Source of the DNA: Eledone cirrhosa
Lineage: Eukaryota
Direction of reading: 5' to 3'
DNA: 64,000 nucleotides
Assembly: GCA_964016885.1 (NCBI GenBank)
Contig: OZ024753.1
Span: forward strand, 38,936,001 to 39,000,000
In this document: in pieces, positions 51,257 to 53,640 of the stretch
How the letters are laid out: the number at the start of each line of letters is the position of its first letter
Position numbering within the stretch: position 1 is the stretch's first letter
Program-made: the position numbers and the translations under genes
Notes under the pieces: model-generated
The model's input: only the letters and a program-made list of their open reading frames with translations
The model's database searches: none
What the model was told of the DNA's origin: nothing

Positions 51257-51673
51257 TTAGATTATTGAATAATGTGTAGAAAATTACTTAAATTATTATT
51301 ATTTTTAAATATTCTGACGGCATTTATATCATAACTTAAGAAAAGGGTTATCATATCAAATTGAGCTGGCAGATTATAATTTAAACAGGAATCCTTTAAA
51401 ATGGATGAGGTTTTTTTTTGTGGAACCAGAGGCGGTTTTGGGACGATCGGTATCAAAAGGTTTTACTAAAAATACCTTCAGTTCATATCTAGTTTTTATT
51501 TTTCACAGCTTGTTGGAAATAACGTTTTCCTCCAGGCACATCTTTCCTCATTACAATTTTCAATGAATGTTTGTAAGTGTGGTTGTAGTTTGAAGGACAT
51601 TTGACTGCTATTTCTAGTATGTTGTGTAATCGTGTAGATAATCTCTCTTTCTCTGTCTCCGTCCGTCCGTCCC

Positions 51674-51729
<56 letters not shown>

Positions 51730-52990
51730 CCGCTTGACCGTCGTGCCTTGTCCAGCCAAAACGCTCGCCAAAATGGAGCGCGTGCTCTTCCGATTCCTTT
51801 GGAAGAGGCGGGCTCCTTTGGTGAGAAGATCCATCTGCTGCCAACACCCTTCTAACGGAGGGCTGGGGATGCCGTGGTTGACGATGCGCAAACACGCGCT
51901 CAGGCTGCGGCATCTCTACGTATTCCTCACCGGACAACCGGTGTGGGCCCCGTTCGTGAGGCGAGCCTTCCCACGACTCGTCTCGCTGACCGAGCTGCAG
52001 TCCTGGGTCAACCAGAGACCGAGGAAAATGGGCGACTGGCACATCGAATGTGCTCAGGCGCTCACAGCCCTCTGGCAGGCGGACTCGGCGATCAGTGGAG
52101 ACTCCACTTCGTCATTCTATAGAGGGTTGGTCCGCAGCAAGTGCGATGACGCGCTCGGTGAAACTCTAGGCGTAGAGGAAGATGAACTGGCCAGTCTGTT
52201 CGGTAGGACCTTCCGCCCGGGACCGATGGACAACTTCCAAAAGTCCCTGGCCTGGCAGTGCTACCGAGGAGCTCTACCAGTTCGAGACAAGCTCTACAGA
52301 CATGGGCGCCCGGGCAGGGACCCTGCAAAAAAGCTCTGTCCGAGGTGCGTGCGAGACGAAGAAACCGTCGCGCACGCATTCATACACTGCTCGGGCGTCA
52401 CTGACCTGTGGGGCTATGTAGAACGACTATTGTCGCGGGTGGGACCAATCCAGTTGACCACCGAGTCCATTGTCATGATCAAACCGCCACCCTCCTTCAA
52501 AAACGAAGGAGAGGCGGTTTTCCTTTGTGTGATAGCTATGGCGAAAGAGGTTGTATGGTGGACAAGGTTGAAAGGGCTGAGGTCAGACACCTTTCTCTCC
52601 GGCCAACAACTGATTCTTTTTTTCAAATACCACTTTGGAAGAAGAATCAGGATGGAGAGAGAGGTGCTGTACCCCAGCAAGTTTTATGAAAGGTGGGTGA
52701 AAGTGGCGAGAATGGCCCGAGTGAATGGGCCTTCTCTCTATGTCAGCTTGTAGGTTGAGGAAAAGGAGGAGAGGAGAGGAGTACAAGCTCTTTGTACTCC
52801 TGGAGATGAGGGTTGCACATTTTTTTTCGGGGGTATGTGTTACCCATATAAACTGTCTCCCTCTATTGGGGAAAATCGACTAACTTTTAAATTCCATCTG
52901 TGATAACATTTTACACGTTTTTATTGTATGTAAACTTCCCCCTTTGTATTTGTCCCCTTCTTTTGTGCCCCTGTGGCTAATAAAGAAATA

Positions 52991-52992
<2 letters not shown>
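51730..52992 (+). mobile_element. 5'-truncated Tx1/L1-clade non-LTR retrotransposon: open ORF2 3' part (zf-RVT), 3'UTR, AATAAA
   Basis: ORF 51734-52753 with FRFLW, GGLGMP, LPVRDKL and the CPRC..DEETVAHAFIHC zinc knuckle. AATAAA at 52979; (TCTA)n on both flanks. Confidence 0.9.
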
Positions 52993-53030
<38 letters not shown>

Positions 53031-53031
<1 letters not shown>

Positions 53032-53221
53032 CCTGAAGTTGAGGGTTGTACTATCGACGGTGTATTAAACAACCCATTTGTGGCGCCTCCCCCCTATTGG
53101 GGATTTCGATTGTTATATTTGTTTGTTTCATATTTTTACACGATAGTATATAAAATCCCCGGCATGTGTCTTTGTTTTGTCCCCTTTTCTTGTGCGCCCC
53201 TGTGGCTAATAAAGAAATATA
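53031..53221 (+). mobile_element. Tx1-like 3'UTR-only copy
   Basis: Similar to 52799-52992, ends gtggctaataaagaaata; (TCTA)n on both sides. Confidence 0.8.
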
Positions 53222-53235
53222 TCTATCTATCTATC

Positions 53236-53586
53236 TGGAAGAAGAATCAGGTTGGAGAGAGAGGTGCTGTACCCCAGCAAATTTTATAAAAAGGTGGGTG
53301 AATGTGGCAAAGATGGCCCGAGTGGTTGGGCCTTCTCTCTATATAAGCCTGTAGGTTGAGGAAAAACAGGAAGGGAGGAAGGGAGTACTCACTCTTGGTG
53401 CTCCTGGAGATGAGGGTTGTACATTTTTTCGGGGTGTGTACAACCCCTGTGTAACACCTCCCCCCTATTGGGGATTTCAATTGTTATTTGTTATTTTATT
53501 AATAGTTTTATTTTCATATACCTGTATGTAAACTCCCCATTTGTATTTGTCCCCTTCTTTTGTGCCCTTGTGGCTAATAAATAAAT

Positions 53587-53588
<2 letters not shown>
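53236..53588 (+). mobile_element. Tx1-like 3' fragment (ORF2 end plus 3'UTR)
   Basis: Encodes ..KRWVNVAKMARVVGPSLYISL*, matching the ORF end at 52753; (TCTA)n on both sides. Confidence 0.85.

Positions 53589-53640
<52 letters not shown>

What the first reader, a model, noticed from the sequence alone, without database searches (positions are those of the whole stretch)
51673..53640. Tx1-like LINE apparently targeting (TCTA)n: three stacked independent insertions
Seen: three 5'-truncated copies of different length and sequence (51730-52992, 53031-53221, 53236-53588), all in the same orientation and each bounded on both sides by (TCTA)n. There is no poly(A) tail after AATAAA. The 5' junction of the longest copy reads through as atc-tac-cgc-ttg, suggesting microhomology with the repeat. 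Established: some Tx1-clade elements are sequence-specific, including the microsatellite-targeting Kibi and Koshi of fish. Inference: a (TCTA/GATA)n-specific family in this genome. The 339-aa segment has no stops, so it may be young.
Basis: partly seen in the sequence, partly recalled or inferred. Interest (0 to 1): 0.7.

Follow-up and report, generated by a model that had tools for sequence, protein, structure and literature searches.

The report
Retrotransposon family that targets GATA repeats
Three broken copies of an abundant, recently active jumping gene, likely from an octopus-like animal, sit one behind another in a simple TCTA/GATA repeat, which this family prefers, likely because its enzyme cuts there; repeat-seeking elements are known, but I did not find this repeat reported as their target.

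Summary
Confirmed. The three pieces are 5'-truncated copies from three subfamilies of a two-ORF, APE+RT LINE with at least 6,547 3' ends in the genome, 5,758 of them followed by NTATCT. Full-length copies (5.84 kb) are up to 99.9% alike, and some keep both ORFs open. The target is real, not a tail. Of 76 truncated copies, 48 have at least 10 nt of TCTA just upstream (control 19 of 6,386; TAGA 0). Target duplications run 14-22 nt, and empty paralogous sites already hold TATCT. Correction: the target is a short motif, about ATC^TATCT, so this is a strong preference, not strict specificity for arrays. The window copies differ in subfamily and age (likely B, then C, then A), and the 17-nt B-C spacer has the length of a target duplication, so the insertions are likely independent. 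Tx1 membership is only moderately supported, with no named references. It works like Kibi/Koshi with a target I did not find in print. The scan reported this family before, on another piece of the same genome (e1-9510316).

The parts
51674..51729 (+). (TCTA)14 array, 5' part of the target
   Evidence: 100% matches
51730..52990 (+). Copy A, 5'-truncated (about 1.26 kb of a 5.84-kb element), youngest subfamily: end of ORF2 plus 3' UTR, no poly(A)
   Evidence: 99.1% to nearest copy, 98.6% to full-length L042; last 188 nt 100% identical to other copies
51731..52753 (+). Open C-terminal part of ORF2 (residues about 806-1145) with the zf-RVT cysteine motif and the stop codon
   Evidence: (PF13966, E 5.8e-07)
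52991..53031 (+). (TATC)10 spacer between A and B
53031..53219 (+). Copy B, 3' UTR only, B subfamily (about 78% to A over 1.26 kb), likely the oldest of the three
   Evidence: best other copy 96.3%
53220..53236 (+). 17-nt TATC spacer between B and C, the length of a target duplication
   Evidence: TSD range
53236..53587 (+). Copy C, end of ORF2 (one frameshift) plus 3' UTR, C subfamily (about 87% to A)
   Evidence: best other copy 98.0%, and 99.5% over the last 188 nt
53588..53640 (+). (TATC)13 array, 3' part of the target
59073..59177 (-).
   Evidence: 97-98% to A references

Best explanation
The three pieces are 5'-truncated copies of a young, abundant two-ORF LINE family that sits preferentially in TCTA/GATA repeats with 14-22-nt target duplications and no added tail, likely because its APE endonuclease nicks at a short ATC^TATCT motif and primes reverse transcription there. 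Shown: family anatomy, copy number, one fixed orientation to the repeat, target duplications, motif present in empty paralogous sites, no poly(A) or repeat tail, three subfamilies in the window. Inferred: the nick lies on the GATA strand; the RNA's last bases may pair with the primer; the second cut falls about 14-22 nt downstream. Each insertion leaves its 3' end next to TATC and duplicates repeat units, so the site stays a target and later copies stack head to tail. In the window the likely order is B, then C directly behind B (the 17-nt spacer being C's duplication), then A upstream.
For: 5,758 of 6,547 3' ends are followed by NTATCT. Sample: the first 100 listed 3' ends on contig C1, with 2 unresolved dropped and 22 full-length set aside. 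Of the 76 truncated copies, 48 have a perfect TCTA run >=10 nt at the 5' junction; TAGA >=8 nt occurs in 0 of 98; controls 19 of 6,386 and 2 of 1,874. 21 informative TSDs of 14-22 nt: C before the cut in 18, then T20 A21 T21 C17 T19 of 21. Empty paralogues of two host repeats: TATCTG in 18 of 19 and TATCTAT in 17 of 19; one such site was hit twice by different subfamilies (L007, L202). 19 of 19 neighbours under 13 kb share a strand. 40 of 98 copies lie under 150 nt behind another 3' end, 11 of them at 15-22 nt. ORF2 has APE, RT and zf-RVT domains; catalytic D141, N143, D202, D226 and H227 are invariant; the endonuclease model (pLDDT 94.8) is closest to L1 EN, TM 0.84. Specificity of APE endonucleases in TRAS1, R1Bm and Tx1L is described in PMC1919474 (passages).
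Against: 25 of 76 truncated copies have under 8 nt of repeat upstream; some have non-repeat TSDs and some are probably later rearrangements. 13 of 100 3' ends are not followed by TAT; 6 read AAT. The TSD search required >=10 nt and >=3 non-repeat bases, so it misses short ones such as the 7-nt TSD at L007. No enzyme assay, so the share of endonuclease specificity versus RNA-primer pairing is not separated. Long 5' arrays may have grown by slippage after insertion. The insertion order rests on nearest-neighbour identity among only the best 40 candidates per search.
Confidence: 0.85

Rival explanations
1. The endonuclease is only loosely specific, and the preference comes mostly from pairing of the RNA's 3' end (ending UAU or UAUCU) with nicked or slipped GATA DNA.
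For: Bases after the cut (TAT, TATCT) are more conserved than those before it. Some empty sites have T rather than C before the cut (L069 series).
Against: Upstream positions -8 to -1, which an RNA 3' end cannot pair with, still follow the TATC period (T17, A17, T14, C18 of 21 at -4 to -1). Six copies continue with AAT instead of TAT.
Confidence: 0.1
2. The three copies arrived in one event by template jumping between RNAs of different subfamilies, or as one duplicated or transduced block.
For: A few stacked pairs have spacers of only 0-7 nt (4 of 40), which could be jumps.
Against: Window spacers are 41 and 17 nt of pure target, while the RNA carries no repeat tail. Over the same 188 nt the nearest copies are 100%, 96.3% and 99.5% alike for A, B and C. 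None of the best-scoring matches of A, B or C repeats this arrangement.
Confidence: 0.04
3. The repeat is a self-made 3' tail, or copies merely survive in microsatellite-rich DNA.
For: Full-length copies seem to carry a few repeat units at their 5' end (shared TCTCTAT variant in 8 of 17 A-type 5' ends). TCTA arrays are common: 10,227 starts in one phase.
Against: Truncated copies cannot carry the 5' end, yet 48 of 76 have the repeat upstream, always in one orientation. At TSD-defined sites the 3' flank is exactly the duplicated target.
Confidence: 0.01

Closest known systems
Kibi (TC)n and Koshi (TTC)n of teleosts; crocodilian Tx1 families on (TTCC)n/(TTTC)n (PMC4494074, parts 1-4 of 5 read; PMC3812793, passages)
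   Same: APE-type non-LTR element found preferentially in one microsatellite; passes the >20% of flanks criterion used in PMC4494074.
   Different: Target is TCTA/GATA, not a pure pyrimidine repeat; host is probably an octopod cephalopod; thousands of copies in several subfamilies. Sequence relation to Kibi/Koshi was not tested because no named sequences were available.
Keno (U2 snRNA), Mutsu (5S rDNA), Dewa (tRNA spacer) (PMC4494074; PMC3706591, passages)
   Same: The nearest non-cephalopod group in my tree is a set of U2-flanked APE elements (86/89), which I read as Keno-like from their target.
   Different: Single-site RNA-gene targets rather than a short repeat motif; about 29% protein identity.
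Waldo (ACAY)n and Mino (AC)n; TRAS/SART on telomeric repeats (PMC3812793, PMC1919474, passages)
   Same: APE endonuclease directing insertion into a simple repeat; Waldo's is also a tetranucleotide.
   Different: TRAS1/SART1 are R1 clade (PMC1919474), and Waldo/Mino come from the R1-clade paper cited there; this family's RT and EN are of the L1 group.
Human L1
   Same: Best solved relative of ORF2 (E 3e-51, against 3e-22 for R2) and of the EN fold; short-motif preference and TSDs of similar size (recalled).
   Different: No poly(A) tail; ORF1 is unlike L1 ORF1p (only a weak CCHC knuckle); the motif is a microsatellite unit.

Membership tests
L1-group non-LTR retrotransposon | Two ORFs; ORF2 with N-terminal APE endonuclease, RT and C-terminal zinc finger | tested here: met
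   ORF1 638 aa, ORF2 1145 aa; PF03372, PF00078, PF13966
L1-group non-LTR retrotransposon | RT and EN closer to L1 than to R2 or cellular APE | tested here: met
L1-group non-LTR retrotransposon | TPRT marks: 5' truncation, fixed 3' end, target duplication | tested here: met
Tx1 clade | RT groups with named Tx1 families (Tx1L, Keno, Kibi, Koshi) | tested here: inconclusive
   No named references. Sister to U2-flanked elements at 86/89 in the 43-row tree; on the side of U2-, 5S- and tRNA-flanked elements at SH-aLRT 95 in the 84-row tree; apart from DUF4283-type L1. No vertebrate L1 in either tree. The labels of L240, L243 and L248 were set by eye, the other U2, 5S and tRNA labels by Rfam.
Tx1 clade | ORF1 with CCHC zinc knuckle (recalled as typical) | tested here: inconclusive
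   One CX2CX4HX4C motif at about 344-360; PF00098 E 0.24, below the cut-off
Microsatellite-targeting Tx1 (Kibi/Koshi type) | One repeat type in more than 20% of flanks (criterion of PMC4494074) | tested here: met
   63% of truncated 5' flanks (48 of 76); 88% of 3' flanks begin NTATCT
Kibi or Koshi proper | Target (TC)n or (TTC)n | tested here: not met
   Target is TCTA/TATC
Microsatellite-targeting Tx1 (Kibi/Koshi type) | Endonuclease cleaves the repeat specifically | not testable with these tools
   Needs a biochemical assay

The most novel reading that the evidence does not exclude
A still-active cephalopod Tx1 lineage, independent of Kibi/Koshi, has an endonuclease specific for GATA repeats and farms its own target. 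It duplicates repeat units at each insertion, carries repeat units on its RNA 5' end, and leaves a fresh cut site behind its 3' end, so it builds head-to-tail stacks and supplies a sizeable share of the genome's GATA microsatellites.
Probability: 0.3. Interest if true: 0.55.

Novelty: new member of a known kind. Interest (0 to 1): 0.36.

Why it matters
It adds a GATA/TCTA target and a cephalopod host to the short list of microsatellite-targeting APE elements, whose mechanism a review calls not well understood (PMC3812793, passage). Thousands of datable insertions, clear duplications and intact near-identical full-length copies make it a good system for separating endonuclease specificity from RNA-primer pairing. 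It also warns that GATA microsatellite markers in these animals often border LINE insertions. The principle itself is known.

Tried and rejected
Empty allele of this site: contigs of 4 of the 21 listed runs were laid on 50990-54300; repeats swamped the joints and no piece bridged the site, so there is no verdict. No RNA holder was listed. Loci on small unplaced contigs (L021, L104, L105) had stacked or repetitive flanks and were not pursued as alternate alleles. A single-sequence fold of the endonuclease was poor (pLDDT 41) and was replaced by the alignment-based model. My first 3'-end pattern stopped falsely inside ORF1 of 9 full-length copies; it was corrected, and only one search counts are used. 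The protein atlas gave no result. Named Tx1 references were not obtained: no hit shown or 62 bore a Tx1 name; Kojima and Fujiwara 2004 and Christensen 2000 are not held; the supplement of PMC4494074 was unreadable and figures are not held, so its Fig. 3 target labels were not seen. Rejected: that the 5' read-through matters (1-3 nt microhomology only); that the open frame alone proves youth (at about 1% divergence an open 340-codon frame is expected; youth rests on copy identity).

Full report
Observation. The window is G000:C13:38936001-39000000 in a 3.0-Gb genome. Between 51674 and 53640 lie three same-strand LINE 3' fragments separated by TCTA/TATC runs of 56, 41, 17 and 53 nt. Each ends AATAAA(G/T)AAAT, one more base, then TATC; there is no poly(A). 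Copy A holds an open 340-codon frame with a zf-RVT motif. A fourth, 105-nt copy lies on the minus strand at 59073-59177 in a TAGA array.

The family. A 22-nt 3'-end pattern has 6,547 exact matches and the reversed control 0. A second pattern, whose 100 listed hits all show a sister type of end, gives 2,498 matches followed by TATCTATC. An A-type 5'-end pattern has 450 matches. Of 20 long copies fetched, 11 were full length (about 5.84 kb). Seven of the 11 are 99.6-99.9% alike, and five keep both ORFs open (L039-L042, L046). ORF1 is 638 aa with one weak CCHC knuckle; ORF2 is 1,145 aa with APE, RT and zf-RVT. The best solved relative is human L1 ORF2p (E 3e-51; R2 3e-22). The endonuclease model (pLDDT 94.8) matches L1 EN best. 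The nearest named proteins are from Argonauta hians (66-67%) and Acanthosepion pharaonis (43-47%), so the host is probably an octopod; this is inference.

Target or tail. Genome-wide, 5,758 of 6,547 ends are followed by NTATCT. For the 5' side I took the first 100 listed ends (contig C1, chosen without regard to flank), dropped 2 whose junction ran off the locus, and set aside 22 full-length copies. Full-length copies may carry repeat units on their own 5' end: 8 of 17 A-type 5' ends share a TCTCTAT variant, and in L171/L172 repeat units lie between the duplication and the element (probably one event). Of the 76 truncated copies, 48 have a perfect TCTA run of at least 10 nt at the junction and 37 at least 16 nt; among copies at least 98.5% alike to a reference it is 27 of 35. 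The opposite orientation never occurs (0 of 98 at 8 nt). Controls were 19 of 6,386 local windows and 2 of 1,874 in this window. Against strict specificity, 25 of 76 have under 8 nt of repeat upstream.

Target duplications and empty sites. A search over fetched loci found 23 duplications with non-repeat letters; I dropped 2 that look like one duplicated event. The other 21 are 14-22 nt, microhomology included. They begin TAT in 20, and the base before is C in 18. The search cannot see duplications under 10 nt. Two insertions lie inside other dispersed repeats, so paralogues serve as empty sites. All 19 + 19 fetched paralogues lack the element; 18 of 19 read AAC^TATCTG and 17 of 19 read ^TATCTAT, and the occupied sites show only element plus duplication, with no added tail. 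One of these sites was hit twice, by A (L007, 7-nt duplication) and B (L202, 14 nt). So the repeat is target, not tail, and one unit in a suitable context can suffice; arrays simply offer many sites.

Stacking and the window. All 19 neighbour pairs under 13 kb are on one strand. 40 of 98 copies begin within 150 nt of another family 3' end, 11 of them at 15-22 nt. The window's copies belong to three subfamilies: A is about 78% alike to B references and 85-88% to C references. Over their last 188 nt the nearest other copies are 100% (A), 99.5% (C) and 96.3% (B) alike. The 17-nt B-C spacer fits C inserting directly behind B. The order B, C, A is inferred. Template jumping fits poorly, because the spacers are pure target and the RNA has no repeat tail. 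No empty allele of this site could be seen.

Mechanism. Target-primed reverse transcription with a repeat-preferring APE endonuclease is the best reading (0.85). Endonuclease-borne specificity is established for TRAS1, SART1, R1Bm and Tx1L (PMC1919474, passages). Here it is inferred from the upstream TATC period, which RNA pairing cannot explain. Pairing of the RNA's last bases may contribute.

Clade. A metagenome scan returned 80 distant relatives; 40 were scanned with Rfam, and several are flanked by U2, 5S, U1 or tRNA genes. An 84-row quick tree puts the family on their side. A 43-row tree, with 10 long-branched or divergent rows and other redundant rows left out, makes the family's clade sister to U2-flanked, Keno-like elements at 86/89, unstarred. 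No named Tx1 and no vertebrate L1 was in either tree, so Tx1 membership is likely but not shown.

Prior art. PMC4494074 (parts 1-4 of 5 read; figures and supplement not seen) gives Tx1 microsatellite targets TC, TTC, TTCC and TTTC. PMC3812793 (passages) lists ACAY, AC, TC, TTC and TAA. PMC4640811 (passages) adds TG. Two cephalopod papers mention L1-Tx1 only as a repeat class, without targets (PMC13282606, part 1 of 3, passages and its supplement; PMC8967140, passages). Seven searches (listings only) showed no GATA/TCTA-targeting LINE. Repbase, Dfam and most subscription papers could not be checked, so it may be recorded there. Within this scan the family was noted before on other pieces of the same genome (e1-9510316, e1-9593200); those notes are not independent evidence, and my reading was written before I saw them.

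Verdict. Real and well supported. A new member of a known kind, with a target I did not find in print. Interest 0.36.

Noticed in passing
window 59073-59177 (-): Fourth family copy, about 105 nt, A type, with TCTA repeats on both sides on its own sense strand.
   Followed up: yes
window 29560-29800 (+); also L064: A common SINE-like repeat ends in a tail 88% alike to the family's last 50 nt but is followed by (ATT)n instead of TATC: a possible partner SINE, or a sister family with another target.
   Followed up: partly
window 34060-34933 (-): A diverged ORF2 end (38% over 94 aa) runs into a 114-bp tandem repeat (5 copies, 94% matches) whose unit also matches the ORF2 end: a minisatellite apparently born from a Tx1-like element.
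   Followed up: partly
G000, e.g. L021, L036, L045, L146 upstream ends: Further sister 3' ends (GGCAAAT type, 2,498 pattern matches; GGTAAAT type) stack in the same arrays.
   Followed up: partly
L170, L171, L172, L176, L181: Six B-subfamily ends continue with AATAT instead of TAT; one has a clean 16-nt duplication after TAAC: a relaxed or alternative target.
   Followed up: no
3' ends across loci: A short GCC...GGC/GGT palindrome with a variable 5-nt middle precedes AATAAA in most ends: a possible RNA hairpin for RT recognition; not folded or tested.
   Followed up: no
L220, L221, L224, L227, L232, L233 (U2); L236 (5S); L266 (U1); L279 (tRNA): Distant APE+RT relatives in metagenome contigs lie next to or inside RNA genes.
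   Followed up: partly
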